From an uncultured Chloroflexia bacterium (GTDB taxonomy: Bacteria; Chloroflexota; Limnocylindria; Limnocylindrales; CSP1-4), in contig CAVTHS010000006.1 in assembly GCA_963734535.1 (NCBI GenBank), positions 207,901 to 271,900 of the forward strand: a stretch of DNA of 64,000 nucleotides. Direction: 5' to 3'. The translations under genes and the position numbers were made by a program. The notes under the pieces were generated by a model that was given only the letters and a program-made list of their open reading frames with translations, had not been told where the DNA came from and did no database searches. Positions 3 through 7,320 of the stretch are shown in pieces (the first letter of the stretch is position 1; each line of letters starts with the position of its first letter).

Positions 3-572
3 ATGGGCCTGCCCGCTGCGGCGCCGGTCGCGGCGCTCGGGCGTCGGAGCGTCGCGTACATCGTCGACTCGCTGATCATCGGCCTCGCCTACGTCGTGAT
101 CGGCGTCGTCTTCGACTCCCTCTTCGGGCCGCTCGTCGAGGCGACACCCGACGGGCTGGCGCTCGTGGTGGTCGCGGTCAACCCGCTCCGCGTGGCCCTG
201 GAGCTCACCGCGACGCTCGTCGTCGACGCGCTCTACTTCGCCGGGTGCTGGTGTCGCTGGGGCGCGACGCCCGCGCAGCGCGTGCTCGGGATCCGGGTCC
301 GGCTGGCGGATGCCGAGCCTTCGACGCCGGGTGGGCCCCGTGCGCTTCCGGTCGAGGCAGCCGGGCGTCGCTGGGCGGTCCTGGCGATCCTCCCGATCGC
401 GACGGGCTCCCTGTCGGCGAGCGGTGCCGTCGACGTCAGCGTCCTGGCCCTCGTGAACGGCGCGTGGTTCCTGGTCCTGCTCGTCTCCGCGGCCGTGGAC
501 CCGCTCCGGCGCGGCCTCCACGACCGTGCCGGGGGCACGATCGTCGTCCCGATCGCCCGCCGTCCCACCTGA
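3..572 (+). CDS. RDD family membrane protein (5' end may lie before the window)
   Basis: 'LGRRSVAYIVDSLI', 'GATPAQRVLGIRV' and 'RRGLHDRAGGTIVV' are the RDD hallmark motifs. Confidence 0.85.
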   Translation: MGLPAAAPVAALGRRSVAYIVDSLIIGLAYVVIGVVFDSLFGPLVEATPDGLALVVVAVNPLRVALELTATLVVDALYFAGCWCRWGATPAQRVLGIRVRLADAEPSTPGGPRALPVEAAGRRWAVLAILPIATGSLSASGAVDVSVLALVNGAWFLVLLVSAAVDPLRRGLHDRAGGTIVVPIARRPT

Positions 573-660
573 TGGGTTCGGGCTGCCGGCGGCGCCGTCG
601 GGGGCCTTCGGTGCCCGCCGCGGGAGGCGACCGATCGGCTGTCAATGGTCCGCAGGGCAT

Positions 661-735
661 TCATCCACACGGCGTCCACACCGCGGCGAAGTTGGTGGAC
701 GGGCGGAGCGGGCGGACTCGCATCTTCGTGGATAA
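661..735. promoter_or_regulatory. Cluster of DnaA-box-like 9-mers
   Basis: TCATCCACA (661-669), GCGTCCACA (672-680) and TTATCCACG on the minus strand (727-735), versus consensus TTATCCACA/TTGTCCACA. Confidence 0.4.
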
Positions 736-740
736 CCGGG

Positions 741-769
741 TTGCCGGAGGGTTGTCGGGGCGCGATGAT
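741..769 (+). promoter_or_regulatory. Putative sigma70 promoter for the downstream structured RNA
   Basis: TTGCCG-17 nt-GATGAT. The same GCGATGATC -10 context recurs at 47892-47900. The predicted start (~775-776) coincides with the 5' end of the long helix. Confidence 0.5.
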
Positions 770-774
770 CTCCC

Positions 775-922
775 TGCCCGGAGGGGCTACGACAGCCGAC
801 GACCCGGCGATCACATCAACGGGTCACGGCGAGGTGATCGGGAGCAATCCCGGTTGCTCTCCCTCCGAGGTCGCGCCGCGATTGCATCAAGGTTGCTTCC
901 TCGGACGTGGTTCCTCTGGGCA
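775..922 (+). ncRNA. Candidate structured non-coding RNA (~148 nt, multi-branch), family not recognised
   Basis: A 17-bp closing helix 775-791/906-922 with 4 G-U pairs (favours the + strand). Inner hairpins at 801-826, 828-862 (GGGA-GCAA-TCCC GNRA tetraloop) and 864-905. Lies in an ~800 bp gap between convergent genes. Confidence 0.55.
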
Positions 923-1381
923 CTGCTGTGTCCCGCGCGGGGCCGCCGGTGAGCGCACCCGTGGATCGCCTGACCGCCGGGAACGCGCCGACACCATGTG
1001 GGCGAGGGTCGCCCGGGCGCCGAGCTCCACCCGACCGGAGCGCGCAACCCGGTGTCGCCCACGACGAACCGGTGGCGCCCACGACGAACAGATCGCGCGG
1101 ATCGGGCACCTCCGCCCCGCCGCAGGAAGCGGCGAGCGCCGCTTGTTCGCATTGGGCGACCGATCGGCGAGGATCGGCCCGCCACGCTGGCCCGCGACCG
1201 TGCGATTCGGGCCGTCTGTTCGCCGCAGGCGACCGGCGAGGTGGAGGCCGGCGCGCAGGCCCCGGCTGCTGGGCGATGAGCGTGGAGGCACTCGAACGGA
1301 GGCCGTCGCCGGCGCCGCCGCGCTGGCCGGTCGGCGTCCTGTCGGCGGAGATTGCCGGTCGGCGGAGATCGCCGACCGGCG

Positions 1382-2064
1382 TCAGGTCGGCGGGACCAGG
1401 TTCTCGCGATCCGTGAGCGGATCGGCGGCGGGTGTCGCGCACAGGAAGTAGCGCAGTCGCGTTCGCCCGATGTTCGCGATGGCATGCGGGAGCCCCATCT
1501 CCACGCGGACACCCTTCAGCGGCTCGAGCGTCTCCTCCAGCGACCCGACCCGGACCGAGCCGCGCCCCTCGAGGACGACGACCACGTGCTCGGAGGCCAG
1601 GTGGCGGTGCCAGCCGGTCGTGGCTCCCGGATCCAGCTCGATCTCGGACACGCTGAAGCTGAGGGTGCCGAAGTCGCCGGGCTCCACGAGCACGCGATGC
1701 CGAGGCCGGGCGTGGTGATCAGGCGGGCACCCTCGCGGCGCCGGACCGGCTCGCCGGGCCGCGCTCGCCACGACGGCTGGTCGTCGGCCGGGCGAGCGGG
1801 GTCGATGTCGATCGCGGCACGCAGCGCAAGGGCGTCGATGGCTCCGTCGTTGCGGCCGATGCCCTCGTCGGCCGGTGCCTCGTAGAGAACGTCACCGGCC
1901 CGGACGACGACGCGCCGGCTCAGCGCGATCCCGTGCTCGAAGACGATCTCGCCGGCTGCCACGTAGACCACTGCCTCCTGGCCGCGGAGGCGCGGGCTGA
2001 TCTGCCTGCCCGGCGGGATCCGGTCGAGGTGGAGCTGGATCGCCATGCCCGGGTGGACGCCCAT
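1382..2064 (-). CDS. Two-domain cupin protein (frameshift near 1700)
   Basis: N-half 'GQEAVVYVAAGEIVF...RAGDVLY' in one frame; C-half 'PGATTGWHRH..SEHVVVVLEG...GLPHAIAN' in another. Confidence 0.7.
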
Positions 2065-2100
2065 TCGTTGCGCCGTCAGCCGTCGTTGCGCCGTCAGCCG
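2065..2100. repeat. Perfect 18-bp tandem duplication
   Basis: TCGTTGCGCCGTCAGCCG x2, spanning the thyX stop. Confidence 0.85.
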
Positions 2101-2954
2101 TCGACCACGGCGACGTCGCGACCGGCGGCGCGAGCGGCCTTTGCCTTCTCGGCCCAGGCGCCGAGGACCGAATCGCGGTGCGGCCGGATCGGGCAGTGCT
2201 CGTCCCGGTTGCCCATCTCGTCGCAGTAGCCGAGGGGGACGCACTTGGGGGCCAGGAAGCTTCCCAGGAAGGGGCTGACGGCGAACACCTCGTGGCGGAT
2301 GAGCTGGAAGAGGCGCCGGATTTCCCACTGCGCCATCGTGCACAGCCGGAGCCCCGACATGTGGATCAGCGCCCGCAGGTTCGCGGTCATGACCAGGTTC
2401 GTGCGTGTCGCGTTGGGGAAGACGAAGCGGGCGTCCTCGCCCGGGATCCCCGCGGCAAGCAGCTCGCCGTACAGGTCGAGCGCACCGTCGACCTGCGCCT
2501 CGTACCGGGCGCGAAGCGCCGGGTCCGCGTCCGCGAGCGTCCCCGGGAGCATCGTGGCCGCCCCGGCGTATTTCACGTACCGCTGGCTCTGCTGGTCGAA
2601 GGCGACCCCGGCCCGATGGCGGACCAGCTGGTGGGAGAGCGTGCGGCTGACCCCGCTGATTCCGAACGTGAAGACCACGTGCTCGATCGTGCTGCCGTGG
2701 CCCAATTCGACGACGCCGCTGATCAGCTTCTGCATCTTCGCCCGGTCGATCTCGCCGGATTCCGCGCGCCGGAAGATCTCGGCCGGCTCCAGCTCCGAGT
2801 AGCACGTCCGGCAGGCCGTGTAGATGAGCGGCACGTAGAAGCGCTCGACGATCTCGCGCGACGGGAACAGGAGCGTCGCCTTCATCCCGAGGTCGCGCCG
2901 CCCCGGGTTGGGCTGGATGCCGGGCTTCTCGTGGGTGGGTTGGGACTCGGCCAT
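2094..2954 (-). CDS. thyX: FAD-dependent thymidylate synthase
   Basis: 'GHGSTIEH', 'SRTLSHQLVRHRAGVAFDQQSQRYV', 'EDARFVFPN', 'AQWEIR'. Confidence 0.95.
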   Translation of the reverse strand: MAESQPTHEKPGIQPNPGRRDLGMKATLLFPSREIVERFYVPLIYTACRTCYSELEPAEIFRRAESGEIDRAKMQKLISGVVELGHGSTIEHVVFTFGISGVSRTLSHQLVRHRAGVAFDQQSQRYVKYAGAATMLPGTLADADPALRARYEAQVDGALDLYGELLAAGIPGEDARFVFPNATRTNLVMTANLRALIHMSGLRLCTMAQWEIRRLFQLIRHEVFAVSPFLGSFLAPKCVPLGYCDEMGNRDEHCPIRPHRDSVLGAWAEKAKAARAAGRDVAVVDG

Positions 2955-4542: not shown

Positions 4543-7320
4543 TTACCGGTCGGGCGGCTCCGTCCCGGCAGGGAAGGGATCGGCCTCGCCGAGCGCATAG
4601 GCGACAGCGAGGTCGAGCGGGAGGCCGCGACCCTCGAGCTCCAGCCGCTCCAGCTCGCCGGCATTCATCGCCACACGCGCGTTCGGTCGCGTGGCCTGCT
4701 CGAACAGCTCCTCGACCATGCGGGCAAGCTCCGTGCCGGTCGACTGCGTCAGCTGCCGGGCTGCCCCGCGCAGCCGCGCCGCGCGCTCGAGGTCGCCAGC
4801 CGTCACCGCCACGGCCGACAGGTCGTCGAGGACCATGGTGATCCCCGACAGGTCGCCGGCCTCGTGGAAATGGCCCAGGGAGTGCCGCATCATGTCGGCC
4901 GCGTGCTCGACGCGGCCCAGCTTGAGGACCGTGGAGCCCAGCATGTGGAGCGCCCAGGCCTCCATGGTGCGGTTCCCCACCGCCCGGAAGTGCTCGAGGG
5001 ATCGGACGTACCAGCCCTCCGCCTCCACCTCGTCCGAGGCGAAGTAGTAGAGGCCGCCGATCCCCCACAGCACGTTGCCCTGCCCGAGTCGATCGCCGAT
5101 CGCCTCGTAGTTCTGGAGCGCCTCGTCGAGGTTGGCGCGGGCGCGCTTCCAGGACTCGGCCTCCGCGCTGCCTGCCATCAGGTTCGAGACCTCGCCCGAG
5201 CCCAGGTTGTAGAGCGCGTTGGCGATCTCGCTCCGGTCGCCGATCGTGCGCCAGATCTCCAGGGCGGCCTCGTACCAGGCTCGCGAGGCGGCGGCGTCGG
5301 CCTGCCAGTACGCGACACCCCCCAGCGCCTCCAGCAGGCGGGCATGCGCCTGGGGAGCCAGGTCCCAGCGGTGATCCTCGAGCGCGCTGAGCCGGCGACG
5401 TCCCTCGCGGAGATAGCCGCGCTGCTGCCAGAAGCGCCAGAGCGCGAAGCCGAGCCGAACGGCCGCCTCGGGATCAGGAATCGCCTCGGCGCGGTCGAGG
5501 GCGGCCCGGAAGTTGTCCGCGTCAGCGTCCAGCCGGTCCAGCCACGCGCGCTGCTCGGGCCCGGAGAGCCCGGCGGCTGCCCGCTCGGCCAGCTCCAGGT
5601 AGGCGGCGAGATGGCGATCACGGATCGCCCGCCCCTCGCCGGACGCATCGAGACGCTCTGCCCCGTAGGTCCGGATGGTGTCGAGCAGCGAGAAGCGCGC
5701 GGTCCCGGCGACGTCGTCGCTGCGGACGAGCGACTGGTCGACGAGCGCGCCGAGCACGTCGACGAGGTCGCCGCCGAGCGCGCCGTCCGCATCGCAGATC
5801 TGCTCGATGAGGGGCAGGTCCCCGCCGCCGACGAAGACCGAGAGCCGGGCCAGGAGGAGCCGGCCGGCATCGTCGAGCAGGTCGTAGCTCCAGGCGATCG
5901 CGCCGCGGAGCGTCCGCTGTCGCTCGGGCAGGTCGCGCGACGCCGAGGCGAGGAGCTCAAGGCGGTGCTCCAGGCGCTCGAGGATGGCGTCCGGGGCCAG
6001 GACCTTGACGCGCGCGGCGGCGAGCTCGATCGCGAGCGGCAGGCCCTGCAGCGTGGCGCAGATCCCGGCGACGGCCGGCGCATTCGCACTGGTGACCCGG
6101 AATTCCGGGCGGACGGCGAGGGCGCGCGCCACGAAGAGCCGGACCGCCTCGTACTGGCCGAGCGTCGCGGGGTCGCCGGCGCGGATCTCGGCAGGCAGGC
6201 GGGCCGCCTCGAGCGTCGAGAGGCGGCGCGGATCGGGGGGCGCCGGCAGCCCCGGGACGGCGTATTCCTGCTCCCCGGAGACGTGCAGCGCGCCCCGGCT
6301 CGTGGTCACGATCGTGAGGGCCGGGCATGTCCGCAGGAGCTGCGCGACGAGCGGGGCCGCCGCGATGACCTGCTCGAAGTTGTCGAGCACGAGCAGGCAG
6401 GCGCGCGGAGCGAGGTGCTCTACCAGCAGGTCGAGGGTGGGGCGGACGCCGCTGTCGGTCAGCCCGACGGCGCGGGCGACCGTGCCCGCCACCAGCCCGG
6501 CCTCCCGAAGCGGCTCGAGCGGCACGAACCAGACCCCGTCCGGGTAGCGGTCCGCGGCCGCGGCCGCGACCTGGAGCGCCAGGCGCGTCTTGCCGATGCC
6601 GCCGGGGCCAGTGAGGGTCAGGAGCCGCGACGCGTCGAGCAGCAGGAGCGTGGCCGCGAGGTCGCGGTCGCGACCCACGAACGACGTCAGCTGGGTCGGC
6701 AGGTTGTTGGGTCGCCGGTCGAGCGAACGGATCGGTGGGAAGTCGGCCGGGAGGCCCACGGCGACGAGCTGCGCGAGGCGCTCCGGCCGGAGGTCCTTGA
6801 GGCGGTGCTCCCCGAGGTCGCGGATCGACACGTCCGGGGGGAGCATCCCGCCGATGAGCGAGCGAGTCGTCTCCGAGACCAGGACCTGGCCGCCGTGGCC
6901 TGCCGCGGCGATGCGCGCGGCCCGGTGGACCTCGAGCGACGTGTAGCCGCCGTCTGACGTGGGTGTCGCCTCGCCGGTGTGGAGTCCCATCCGGACCCGG
7001 ATCTGCGAACCCTCGGGCCAGGGATGTGCGGCAAGGGCTCGCTGCGCCGCGACGCAGGCGGCCGCGGCCGCGCTCGCGCTGGCAAACGCGACGAAGAACG
7101 CGTCGCCCTCCGTCTGCACCTCGACGCCGCCCGCCGCCTCGAAGGCGGCCCGAAGGATGGCGCGGTGCGCCTCCAGGAGGGGCTCGTACGCGCTCCCCAG
7201 GCGCGTGATCAGCGCGGTCGAGCCCTCGATGTCGGTGAAGAGGAAGGTGACCGTCCCGGCGGGGAGCGGCCGCCGGGTGCCGGCGAGCGCGGGCGGTTCC
7301 ACGGGGGCGGGCGGTTCCAC
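4543..7320 (-). CDS. Class III adenylate/guanylate cyclase fused to NB-ARC (STAND) ATPase and TPR-like repeats
   Basis: 'FLFTDIEGST', 'EGDAF', 'RMGLHTGE', Walker A 'GPGGIGKTRLA', 'LVLDNFE', 'GLPLAIELAAAR'; C-terminal helical repeats. Confidence 0.92.
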   Translation of the reverse strand: MEPPAPVEPPALAGTRRPLPAGTVTFLFTDIEGSTALITRLGSAYEPLLEAHRAILRAAFEAAGGVEVQTEGDAFFVAFASASAAAAACVAAQRALAAHPWPEGSQIRVRMGLHTGEATPTSDGGYTSLEVHRAARIAAAGHGGQVLVSETTRSLIGGMLPPDVSIRDLGEHRLKDLRPERLAQLVAVGLPADFPPIRSLDRRPNNLPTQLTSFVGRDRDLAATLLLLDASRLLTLTGPGGIGKTRLALQVAAAAADRYPDGVWFVPLEPLREAGLVAGTVARAVGLTDSGVRPTLDLLVEHLAPRACLLVLDNFEQVIAAAPLVAQLLRTCPALTIVTTSRGALHVSGEQEYAVPGLPAPPDPRRLSTLEAARLPAEIRAGDPATLGQYEAVRLFVARALAVRPEFRVTSANAPAVAGICATLQGLPLAIELAAARVKVLAPDAILERLEHRLELLASASRDLPERQRTLRGAIAWSYDLLDDAGRLLLARLSVFVGGGDLPLIEQICDADGALGGDLVDVLGALVDQSLVRSDDVAGTARFSLLDTIRTYGAERLDASGEGRAIRDRHLAAYLELAERAAAGLSGPEQRAWLDRLDADADNFRAALDRAEAIPDPEAAVRLGFALWRFWQQRGYLREGRRRLSALEDHRWDLAPQAHARLLEALGGVAYWQADAAASRAWYEAALEIWRTIGDRSEIANALYNLGSGEVSNLMAGSAEAESWKRARANLDEALQNYEAIGDRLGQGNVLWGIGGLYYFASDEVEAEGWYVRSLEHFRAVGNRTMEAWALHMLGSTVLKLGRVEHAADMMRHSLGHFHEAGDLSGITMVLDDLSAVAVTAGDLERAARLRGAARQLTQSTGTELARMVEELFEQATRPNARVAMNAGELERLELEGRGLPLDLAVAYALGEADPFPAGTEPPDR

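What the first reader, a model, noticed from the sequence alone, without database searches (positions are those of the whole stretch)
661..922. Orphan promoter-driven multi-hairpin ncRNA with a repeated loop motif, next to DnaA-like boxes
Seen: TGCCCGGAGGGGCTACG (775-791) pairs over 17 contiguous positions, 4 of them G-U, with CGTGGTTCCTCTGGGCA (906-922). It encloses three hairpins, the middle one capped by a GCAA tetraloop. The two outer hairpins share the motif GCGATYRCATCAA (807-819 and 878-890), with CATCAA in the loops. A TTGCCG-17-GATGAT promoter places the start at the helix 5' end, and a TTATCCACG box ends 5 nt upstream of -35. There is no credible ORF, and the flanking genes are convergent. 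Inference: a stand-alone sRNA with two equivalent binding loops (a protein sponge, or a divergent 6S/Ms1-like RNA), possibly DnaA-regulated. I do not recognise it as tRNA, SRP, RNase P, tmRNA or a riboswitch.
Basis: partly seen in the sequence, partly recalled or inferred. Interest (0 to 1): 0.85.

Follow-up and report, generated by a model that had tools for sequence, protein, structure and literature searches.

The report
New structured small RNA in soil Chloroflexota
This is a real, transcribed small RNA of about 147 bases found only in one class of uncultured soil bacteria; it displays two copies of an invariant 13-base loop, sits behind a promoter carrying four DnaA-type boxes, matches no described RNA family, and its partner is still unknown.

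Summary
Window 775/776-922 (+) folds into a 17-bp closing helix with three hairpins (z = -6.5). All 26 same-genus copies fold the same way. On 29 copies, 24 of 59 pairs show compensatory changes (0 of 500 shuffles reach this). Rfam 15 has no match.

Metatranscriptome contigs from 4 runs (4 studies) cover only 788-932. Many stop at 921/922, the end of the helix.

The organism is an uncultured Limnocylindria (Chloroflexota) MAG. The RNA belongs to a modular family seen only in two families of that class. Members share:
- a conserved terminal helix ("handle");
- 1, 2, 3 or 5 hairpins with the loop G[A/C]GAUNRCAUCAA;
- a promoter block of four TCCAC/GTGGA (DnaA-type) boxes, a TTG -35 and a NANNNT -10.

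The same promoter and handle also carry unrelated inner domains, including a second RNA in this genome.

Best reading: a stand-alone, trans-acting sRNA whose loops are multivalent binding sites, more likely for a protein than for an mRNA. Its transcription is probably controlled by DnaA or a factor with the same box. The partner is not identified. The 6S/Ms1-like reading is not supported.

The parts
661..669 (+). DnaA-type box 1 (TCATCCACA)
   Evidence: Read. The column block GTCCACA is conserved in 26 of 26 same-genus copies and recurs upstream of copies in other genera.
672..680 (+). DnaA-type box 2 (GCGTCCACA)
   Evidence: Read. CCACA is invariant in alignment.
694..702 (-). DnaA-type box 3 (GGTGGACGG; reverse complement CCGTCCACC)
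   Evidence: Read. GTGGA is invariant.
727..735 (-). DnaA-type box 4 (CGTGGATAA; reverse complement TTATCCACG), ending 5 nt before the -35
   Evidence: The block GTGGA[T/C/A]AA plus 3-6 nt plus TTG is present in nearly all of 95 family copies.
741..746 (+). -35 hexamer TTGCCG
   Evidence: TTG is conserved while the 17-nt spacer varies freely. 92 of 95 family copies fit TTGNNN-16..19-NANNNT-6..11-GCCCG.
764..769 (+). -10 hexamer GATGAT (NANNNT)
   Evidence: It stands in the same register as TAACGT/TACCGT/TATCGT in other genera. Not found by the simple consensus scan.
776..922 (+). The sRNA. The 5' end is inferred at about 775-777 from the -10 spacing. The 3' end is at 921/922.
   Evidence: Fold; same architecture in 26 of 26 relatives; covariation; + strand scores 120-178 bits against 20-35 bits for the - strand; metatranscriptome contigs cover 788-932, many ending at 921/922.
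775..791 (+). P1 5' strand ('handle')
   Evidence: Pairs with 906-922. The tandem G-U pairs G785-U912 and G786-U911 are kept in 29 of 29 copies. Across 49 wider family members, 8 of 12 handle pairs show compensatory change.
795..830 (+). P2 hairpin with the 13-nt loop GCGAUCACAUCAA (807-819)
   Evidence: Five pairs show compensatory change.
831..861 (+). P3 hairpin capped by the GCAA tetraloop (844-847)
   Evidence: GGGAGCAAUCCC is nearly invariant in the genus. In other genera this position is empty or holds a third motif hairpin.
864..905 (+). P4 hairpin with the 13-nt loop GCGAUUGCAUCAA (878-890)
   Evidence: Nine pairs show compensatory change. The two subgroups of the genus are partly out of register in A3.
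906..922 (+). P1 3' strand
   Evidence: Contigs of 3 studies end at 921/922, one with adapter sequence directly after 922.
923..931 (+). Conserved-position tail (CUGCUGUGU here; RCUUCNUUG in most relatives), probably removed from the mature RNA
   Evidence: Alignments. Only one low-depth contig runs across it.
932..941 (+). Short G+C-rich hairpin CCCGCGCGGG with no U tract
   Evidence: Read. Relatives have a hairpin of different sequence at this place. The terminator scan found nothing.

Best explanation
Window 776-921/922 (+) encodes a stand-alone small RNA of about 147 nt from an uncultured Limnocylindria (Chloroflexota) bacterium.

Shown:
- It folds into a four-way junction: a 17-bp terminal helix and three hairpins.
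- It is present in metatranscriptomes.
- It belongs to a family found only in two families of that class. Members share a sequence-conserved terminal helix, 1 to 5 hairpins with the 13-nt loop G[A/C]GAUNRCAUCAA, and a promoter preceded by four TCCAC/GTGGA boxes.

Inferred:
- Transcription starts at the first base pair of the helix, from TTGCCG-17-GATGAT.
- Transcription is set by a protein that reads the four boxes. DnaA is the most likely candidate, because the same box type clusters next to dnaA in this genome.
- The primary transcript is trimmed at the 3' foot of the helix, which gives a nuclease-resistant, fully paired end.
- The RNA acts in trans. Its two identical loops are equivalent docking sites that bind and titrate a partner, more likely an RNA-binding protein (a two-site sponge or scaffold) than an mRNA.

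The partner is not identified.
For: Structure:
- z = -6.54 on the + strand.
- 26 of 26 same-genus copies fold on their own to the same architecture.
- On 29 copies, 89.6% of cells are paired and 24 of 59 pairs show compensatory change. 0 of 500 shuffles reach this, and slid controls give 1-9 pairs.
- For the handle and the hairpin base in 49 wider members, 98.4% of cells are paired and 11 of 18 pairs are compensatory (0 of 500 shuffles).

Strand: the model scores 120-178 bits on + against 20-35 bits on -. Two G-U pairs are conserved in 29 of 29 copies.

Expression: contigs of 4 of 4 RNA runs (4 studies) lie only on 788-932, with none on 500-787 or 933-1400. Records end at 921/922 in 3 studies, one with adapter right after 922. 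Only 0-12% of the laid sequence runs on into unlike sequence.

Stand-alone status:
- The next gene in this window is convergent.
- Of the 8 copies fetched from the other family (f4), the three whose downstream sequence I read appear to be followed by a convergent gene end as well. This was judged by eye from the sequence, not checked by an ORF or family search.

Promoter and boxes:
- 87 of 94 copies have at least 4 boxes in the 150 nt upstream. Background is a mean of 0.39, with 0 of 870 windows reaching 4.
- 92 of 95 copies fit the promoter pattern.
- The boxes are absent from the rRNA and SRP RNA promoters of this genome.
- Six such boxes, including TTGTCCACA, lie just downstream of dnaA.

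Multivalent loops:
- In the genus, 10 of 13 loop positions are invariant in 58 of 58 loops, and an eleventh is C in 57 of 58.
- The hairpin number is 1 (69 copies), 2 (11), 3 (14) or 0 (1) among 95 copies, and 5 in one further copy.

Against long antisense pairing: apart from the RNA's own antisense strand, the genome (89.9% complete) holds the 11-nt complement only twice, neither in an evident start-codon context as judged by eye from the sequence.
Against: - No partner protein or RNA was identified, so the sponge idea rests on analogy.
- Contigs cannot show true RNA ends or strand. The 5' 12 nt (776-787) are not covered, and no DNA run was laid beside the RNA runs.
- In 64 of 95 copies in other genera, a conserved hairpin and a purine nucleoside phosphorylase gene follow on the same strand within about 60 nt. 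There the RNA may be made as the first part of a longer transcript.
- A short seed (6-7 nt, CAUCAA) for base pairing cannot be excluded.
- DnaA as the box reader is inferred from box sequence only. The box arrangement differs from the one next to dnaA.
- One same-genus genome (G042, 95% complete) gave no hit under strict filters.
- The loop statistics outside the genus are biased, because 80 of the loci were found with a pattern that required the motif.
Confidence: 0.5

Rival explanations
1. It is a base-pairing sRNA. The single-stranded, G-poor loops (…CAUCAA) are seed regions that pair with target mRNAs. The two loops hit two sites or two targets, as the repeated C-rich loops of RsaE/RoxS or 6C RNA do (recalled).
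For: The loops are invariant, unpaired and presented on stable stems. Repeated seeds occur in known sRNAs (recalled). The RNA is stand-alone and abundant.
Against: Apart from the RNA's own antisense strand, the 11-nt complement UUGAUGYNAUC occurs only twice in the genome, and the relaxed 10-mers 6 and 16 times, none in an evident start-codon context as judged by eye. Two internal loop positions vary freely (N, R) while their neighbours are invariant. That pattern fits protein or tertiary recognition better than a continuous duplex. No target conservation could be tested, because only one genome could be laid.
Confidence: 0.25
2. It is the 5' module of a cis-acting leader. Ancestrally the promoter drives sRNA-hairpin-hairpin-punA as one transcript, and the RNA senses a signal or a protein to control the purine nucleoside phosphorylase gene. 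The copy in this window is a remnant left after the gene was lost.
For: In 64 of 95 copies, the conserved hairpin GCCCGRCGGGACGYGAYCGGCAUCCCGGUGUCGGUACU… lies 54-92 nt downstream on the same strand (2 of the 64 are doubtful fuzzy matches at 12 and 16 nt). Where examined, in 24 aligned copies and 5 folds, it is followed by an SD-sequestering helix and a PNP_UDP_1 gene. One 428-nt RNA-run contig reads through past 932.
Against: In this window and most same-genus copies, a convergent cupin gene follows, yet the RNA and promoter stay under strong constraint. Of the f4 copies whose downstream sequence was read (3 of 8), none shows a same-strand gene by eye. Extra copies sit at other loci. Contigs pile up on the RNA and stop at the helix end, at depths of hundreds to thousands against 16 for the read-through contig. 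A 15-17-bp P1 is far more stable than a switching helix.
Confidence: 0.1
3. This is a sub-case of the protein-binding reading. [quoted passage not shown]
For: This genome's own 16S rRNA ends …CUGGAUCACCUCCUUUCU. The loop shares GAUCAC.UC, and 15 of 133 loops in other genera read GAUC[A/G]CCUCAA. Era recognises GAUCA after helix 45, 'especially the two adenines', plus CCUCC (review PMC10582724, passages read).
Against: The second adenine of GAUCA is G in 19 of 58 loops in the genus and 39 of 133 elsewhere, and the C before it also varies. CCUCC is replaced by CAUCA in most loops. The resemblance is 8-9 nt and could be chance. Nothing was tested biochemically.
Confidence: 0.07

Closest known systems
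CsrB/RsmY/RsmZ-type protein-sponge sRNAs (recalled)
   Same: A stand-alone sRNA built of hairpins that each present the same short loop motif. The number of motif hairpins differs between species (here 1, 2, 3 or 5).
   Different: The loop motif is G[A/C]GAUNRCAUCAA, not A(N)GGA. There is a long, sequence-conserved terminal helix. There is no Rfam match. No CsrA link was tested. The partner is unknown.
6S RNA / Ms1 (RF00013 and relatives)
   Same: An abundant stand-alone RNA whose 5' and 3' ends pair in a long helix.
   Different: It is a four-way junction of about 147 nt rather than a rod of about 180-300 nt with a central open-promoter-like bubble. RF00013 finds nothing in this genome, though that model rang in only 5 of 14 control genomes. 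There is no hit at the locus.
Y RNAs / YrlA with Ro (Rsr) (recalled)
   Same: A conserved terminal helix formed by both ends (a protein 'handle') carrying variable inner modules. Here the same handle also carries unrelated inner domains.
   Different: No TROVE/Ro gene was found in this genome (the genome is 89.9% complete). There is no Rfam match and no tRNA-like module.
6C RNA and RsaE/RoxS (repeated-loop base-pairing sRNAs of Gram-positive lineages; recalled)
   Same: Two or more hairpins with an identical unpaired loop sequence.
   Different: Those loops are C-rich and pair with G-rich ribosome-binding sites. Here the loop is CA/U-rich with two free positions, and no complementary start regions were found. 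There is no Rfam match.
DnaA-controlled promoters such as dnaA and nrdAB of E. coli (recalled)
   Same: Boxes close to TTATCCACA/TTGTCCACA lie immediately upstream of the -35.
   Different: Here the controlled genes are non-coding RNAs, and the four-box layout (two forward, two reverse) is conserved across two families of a class. Binding by DnaA is not shown.

Membership tests
Any Rfam 15 family | Score at or above the family's gathering threshold | tested here: not met
   There are 0 matches in the whole window at gathering thresholds. An E<=10 scan of 560-1400 gave 3 junk hits, none on 775-922. There were 0 hits at E<=1 in six relatives' loci.
6S RNA | A long irregular duplex with a large central bubble, and a match to RF00013 | tested here: not met
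   The fold is a four-way junction. RF00013 gives no match in the genome at E<=0.1 (the model is insensitive, ringing in 5 of 14 controls).
CsrB/Rsm sponge | Multiple GGA motifs in hairpin loops | tested here: not met
   Both motif loops read GCGAU(C/U)(A/G)CAUCAA and hold no GGA.
CsrB/Rsm sponge | A cognate CsrA/RsmA protein in the genome | not tested
   No search for PF02599 was run.
Y RNA / YrlA | A Ro (TROVE) protein encoded in the genome, usually nearby | tested here: not met
   PF05731 gives no match in G000 at E<=0.01 (the genome is 89.9% complete).
tRNA / tRNA-like | A cloverleaf recognised by ARAGORN | tested here: not met
   0 genes were found in 11 loci, including this genome's own locus.
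Riboswitch / cis leader | A same-strand gene directly downstream whose expression platform overlaps the structure | tested here: not met
   In this window the next gene is a convergent cupin. The feature is met in 64 of 95 copies of other genera, where a punA leader follows, so it is not a constant property of the family.
Intrinsic-terminator-ended sRNA | A G+C-rich hairpin followed by a U tract at the 3' end | tested here: not met
   The terminator scan found 0 sites in 500-1500. The contigs end at the foot of P1, with no U tract.
DnaA regulon promoter | Boxes matching the organism's DnaA box next to the promoter | tested here: met
   Four boxes lie at 661-735. The same box type clusters beside dnaA. 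The boxes are conserved in 87 of 94 family copies.
DnaA regulon promoter | DnaA binding and a DnaA-dependent change of transcription | not testable with these tools
   This needs EMSA or footprinting and in vitro or in vivo transcription.

The most novel reading that the evidence does not exclude
Limnocylindria may have a dedicated, DnaA-controlled set of 2-4 non-coding RNA genes per genome. These genes share one promoter cassette (four DnaA boxes) and one terminal 'handle' helix, into which different inner domains are plugged. The member studied here would use its repeated loops, which resemble the 16S rRNA 3' tail, to titrate a ribosome-assembly factor such as Era. That would couple replication-initiation status to ribosome biogenesis.
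Probability: 0.06. Interest if true: 0.85.

Novelty: new variant of a known kind. Interest (0 to 1): 0.66.

Why it matters
Limnocylindria (Ellin6529/CSP1-4) are abundant and uncultured. My two literature searches for non-coding RNA in them found nothing: (only retrieved papers on the lineage's taxonomy and ecology). This finding gives a high-confidence, expressed RNA family for the group.

The family has three unusual traits:
- a promoter with four DnaA-type boxes that is conserved across two families of the class and is used only for structured RNAs and one other promoter in this genome;
- a sequence-conserved terminal helix that also carries unrelated inner domains;
- a copy number of an invariant 13-nt loop that varies from 1 to 5.

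If DnaA is the regulator, this would be a conserved link between the replication initiator and riboregulation. The loop is a ready-made bait for finding a new RNA-binding partner.

Tried and rejected
- **Origin of replication:** rejected as the primary reading. dnaA is on another contig. In five near-complete relatives it lies 0.7-1.6 Mb (about 0.7-1.0 Mb measured around the circle) from the best RNA locus. Some genomes have several copies. GC skew on contig C6 is noisy, with a cumulative minimum near 185-190 kb against the RNA at 208.7 kb. That is inconclusive.
- **General 'stable RNA promoter' element:** rejected. The rRNA and SRP RNA promoters lack the boxes.
- **Repeat or mobile element:** rejected. 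There is a single copy in this genome and synteny is conserved.
- **Loop pairing with the downstream punA hairpin** (GAUCAC with GUGAUC): considered and dropped. The hairpin's Y positions vary (GYGAYC) in a way explained by its own stem, and most loops would form only 4-6 pairs. I ran no formal test.
- **Simple promoter and terminator scans:** found nothing.
- **Pfam on the 104-aa ORF behind the third box promoter:** no family.
- **Strict DnaA-box clustering** (<=1 mismatch, >=3 boxes in 250 nt): found no cluster anywhere in the genome. The boxes here are individually imperfect.
- **A loose box-cluster scan:** too noisy to use.
- **Literature:** 'Limnocylindria' + 'noncoding RNA' gave 0 papers. 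DnaA box / small RNA / promoter / Chloroflexi gave nothing relevant in the listing. The motif strings matched only unrelated primer hits. Limnocylindrales/Ellin6529/CSP1-4 gave taxonomy and ecology papers only, seen as listing and abstracts.
- **Uncovered stretches:** no cover on 500-787 and 933-1400.
- No supplementary files were needed or opened.
Full report
**1. The observation**

- The 17-position helix is 775-791 with 906-922 and has 4 G-U pairs.
- The two motif copies are at 807-819 and 878-890.
- The GCAA-capped middle hairpin has its loop at 844-847.
- TTGCCG (741-746) is followed by a 17-nt spacer and GATGAT (764-769).
- The box CGTGGATAA (727-735) ends 5 nt before the -35.
- The neighbouring genes are convergent: an RDD-family ORF at 3-572 (+) and a Cupin_2 ORF at 1382-1771 (-). 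ThyX (2094-2954, -) lies behind the cupin.

The + strand folds to -87.8 kcal/mol, against -59.3 ± 4.4 for shuffles (z = -6.54). The - strand gives only z = -2.70.

The simple consensus scans found no promoter or terminator.

**2. It is a conserved structured RNA, read on the + strand**

The element is single-copy in its genome.

BLAST found it in 24 of 24 sampled same-genus genomes and in 0 of 16 genomes of the sister family.

All 26 copies collected fold on their own into the same closing helix plus three hairpins.

I built covariance model R1 from them. It scores 120-178 bits on the + strand and 20-35 bits on the - strand of the same loci.

On a model-guided alignment of 29 same-genus copies (A3), one search gave:
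- 89.6% of cells form standard pairs.
- 24 of 59 pairs carry compensatory changes.
- 0 of 500 column shuffles reach any of the five measures.
- Sliding the partners by 1-3 columns gives only 1-9 such pairs.

Two caveats apply. The alignment was fitted to the model. Helix P4 is partly out of register between the two subgroups of the genus, which inflates the count of unpaired cells there.

Two G-U pairs in P1 are kept in 29 of 29 copies. These would be C-A mismatches on the other strand.

The 3-bp GAU/AUC mini-stem that the fold draws inside each loop never varies, so it is untested.

One-base indels among close relatives (A1) argue against a coding frame.

**3. No known family**

Rfam 15 gives nothing at gathering thresholds in the whole window. 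It gives nothing on the RNA at E<=10 and nothing at E<=1 in six relatives' loci. ARAGORN finds no tRNA. SRP RNA is elsewhere in the genome. RF00013 (6S) finds nothing in the genome, but that model is insensitive: it rang in only 5 of 14 controls. No Ro/TROVE gene is present.

**4. Expression**

One search for public runs listed six metatranscriptomic runs that hold part of the stretch.

I laid four of them, from four studies, on window 500-1400 at >=85% likeness.
- All 45 contigs laid fall within 788-932.
- Bins 500-778 and 934-1400 have depth 0.
- Summed word depth reaches about 2,400 in one run.
- Of the 25 records shown, four end at 922 (runs X16, X18 and X20), one at 921 and one at 920.
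- In X16, adapter sequence directly follows 922.
- Adapters also abut the 5' ends at 788-804.
- Only one 428-nt contig (depth 16) runs on past 932.
- The share of laid sequence that continues into unlike sequence is 0.02, 0, 0 and 0.12.

Contigs cannot prove ends, strand or level, and I laid no DNA run for comparison. Still, short adapter-bounded contigs confined to the predicted RNA and stopping at the foot of P1 are what a discrete small RNA would give. The first 12 nt are not covered.

**5. What organism, and how wide**

A pattern scan of one genome per species returned at least 119 loci. The 80 listed are labelled mostly Chloroflexota, Chloroflexia, Candidatus Limnocylindrales or Limnocylindria MAGs, with about ten labelled Anaerolineae/Anaerolineaceae or another phylum.

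With R1, 98 of 108 genomes of the window's own family (f1) have a hit. 0 of 42 genomes of the small-genome sister family (f2) do. One same-genus genome (G042) had none under the strict filters.

Model R2 was built from 69 single-hairpin members. Within the class it hits f1 40/44, f4 36/50, f3 2/49, f2 0/6 and f5 0/1. One f3 hit and one f4 hit are in unpublished genomes. R2 misses the three-hairpin form of the window's own genus.

In a phylum-wide draw it hits only f1 and f4: 9 of 151 genomes, and none in the other 45 families sampled.

The RNA was therefore found only in two families of the class Limnocylindria among the genomes searched.

**6. A modular family**

Outside the genus the same terminal helix recurs: GUCUUGCCCGRAGGGGCC … GGUYSCUYCGGGCR, followed by CUUCNUUG. 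It encloses different numbers of hairpins that each carry G[A/C]GAUCRC[A/C]UCAA:
- one hairpin (about 90 nt): 69 of 95 tabulated copies;
- two hairpins: 11 copies;
- three hairpins: 14 copies;
- none: 1 copy;
- five hairpins in one further copy.

Eighty of these loci were found with a pattern that demanded the motif, so the motif statistics there are biased. In the genus set, which was not found that way, 10 of 13 loop positions are invariant in 58 of 58 loops and an eleventh (position 2) is C in 57 of 58. The other two vary: C39/U18/G1 at one and A39/G19 at the other.

Family f4 has an 80-nt form, GUCCCGAAGGGGC…GAGAUCACAUCAA…GGUUCCUUCGGGAC. Its first two helix pairs are changed on both sides.

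Across 49 such members, 98.4% of cells pair and 8 of 12 handle pairs show compensatory change (0 of 500 shuffles).

**7. The promoter block**

Upstream of almost every copy lie two TCCAC and two GTGGA boxes. The last box is 3-6 nt before a TTG -35. A free 16-19-nt spacer follows, then a NANNNT -10 placed 6-11 nt before GCCCG.
- 92 of 95 copies fit the promoter pattern.
- 87 of 94 copies have at least 4 boxes in 150 nt. Random windows from the same loci average 0.39, and 0 of 870 reach 4.
- GATGAT of this window stands in the register of TAACGT/TACCGT elsewhere. This puts the start at about 775-777, the first pair of P1.
- The f4 copies also carry GTGGATAAC and GGGGATAAG boxes.

The boxes resemble the DnaA box (TTATCCACA / TTGTCCACA, recalled). 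In this genome, six such boxes, including a perfect TTGTCCACA, lie just downstream of dnaA.

The rRNA and SRP RNA promoters have none.

The RNA is not near dnaA.

DnaA is therefore the most economical candidate reader, but binding is not shown.

**8. The same promoter and handle with other cargo**

A pattern for box + promoter + handle finds 2 sites in this genome, 2 in a same-genus genome and 3-4 in three others. One of the four sites in G117 looks spurious by eye. The reversed control pattern finds 1, 0, 0, 0 and 0.

The second site in this genome (G000:C8, about 135,710-135,990; L190 411-690) is an RNA of about 280 nt with about nine GCAA-capped hairpins between the same kind of terminal helix. 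It has no Rfam match.

Other genomes carry 195-nt and 103-nt cargos without the loop motif.

A third promoter with the same four-box layout precedes a 104-aa ORF of no Pfam family.

**9. Neighbourhood**

In 64 of 95 copies (2 of them doubtful fuzzy matches), three things follow the RNA on the same strand:
- a variable G+C-rich hairpin;
- a strongly conserved long hairpin, GCCCGRCGGGACGYGAYCGGCAUCCCGGUGUCGGUACU…;
- where examined (24 aligned copies, 5 folds), a helix that sequesters the GGAGG of a PunA-type nucleoside phosphorylase gene.

Rfam does not know this element.

In the window's own genus the phosphorylase gene is replaced by a convergent cupin. Some members keep the conserved hairpin. 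This window and its closest relatives do not. The RNA and its promoter are therefore maintained without any downstream same-strand gene.

**10. Mechanism**

Shown: the structure, strand, expression, family, modular loop number and conserved box promoter.

Inferred: it is a trans-acting RNA whose loops are equivalent docking sites. I favour a protein partner for three reasons.
- The number of identical hairpins varies from 1 to 5, as it does in Csr/Rsm sponges (recalled).
- Two internal loop positions are free while their neighbours are invariant.
- Apart from the RNA's own antisense strand, the genome holds the loop's 11-nt complement only twice, and neither is in an evident start-codon context as judged by eye.

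A short-seed base-pairing role remains a real rival.

The loop resembles this genome's own 16S 3' tail, GGAUCACCUCC, which Era reads (review PMC10582724, passages). However, the second adenine that Era needs is G in about a third of loops. I keep this only as a low-probability lead.

**11. Verdict**

This is a new RNA family in an uncultured lineage, well supported as real and expressed. Its promoter and handle architecture is unusual. Its molecular partner is unknown.

Noticed in passing
L190 411-690 (= G000:C8, about 135,710-135,990; outside the window): A second RNA in the same genome sits behind four GTGGA boxes and a CTTGCG-17-GATCAT promoter. It has the same kind of terminal helix (GCCCGAAGGGGCCG / CGGUCCCUUUGGGC plus a UACUUCGUG tail) enclosing about nine GCAA-capped hairpins. 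It has no Rfam match. An ABC-transporter ATPase gene follows.
   Followed up: partly
L050, L079, L088, L040, L135: about 55-200 nt downstream of the RNA copies: A conserved long hairpin (GCCCGRCGGGACGYGAYCGGCAUCCCGGUGUCGGUACU…CCGUCGGGC) and an SD-sequestering helix lie upstream of a PunA-type PNP_UDP_1 gene. This is a candidate new cis-regulatory leader with no Rfam hit. Some same-genus genomes keep the hairpin although the gene behind it is replaced by a convergent cupin.
   Followed up: partly
L191 873-990 (= G000:C3, about 6,873-6,990): A third promoter has the same layout (two forward and two reverse boxes, CTTACG-17-TAGGAT). Its transcript starts GGGGUUGCCCGAUGAGGGAGC and leads into a 104-aa ORF with no Pfam family.
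   Followed up: partly
G000:C14:140,460-140,772 (outside the window): Six TCCAC/GTGGA boxes, including TTGTCCACA, lie in the gap just downstream of dnaA. rpmH lies divergently upstream of dnaA. This is the likely oriC region.
   Followed up: partly
L190 2540-2707: An FMN riboswitch match scores 57 bits (E = 8e-11), below the gathering score of 66.2.
   Followed up: no
window 1051-1089: There is a near-perfect direct repeat of 19 nt (GGTG[T/G]CGCCCACGACGAAC twice, 1 nt apart) in the long gap between the RNA and the cupin gene. The first copy holds CCCGGTGTCG, possibly a remnant of the conserved downstream hairpin of relatives.
   Followed up: no
window 2067-2102: There is a tandem duplication of 18 nt (GTTGCGCCGTCAGCCGTC twice) at the 3' end of the thyX ORF.
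   Followed up: no
L021 and L027 (genome G018): This one MAG (69% complete) carries two full copies of the RNA on different contigs. This may be a mixed bin or a true duplication.
   Followed up: no
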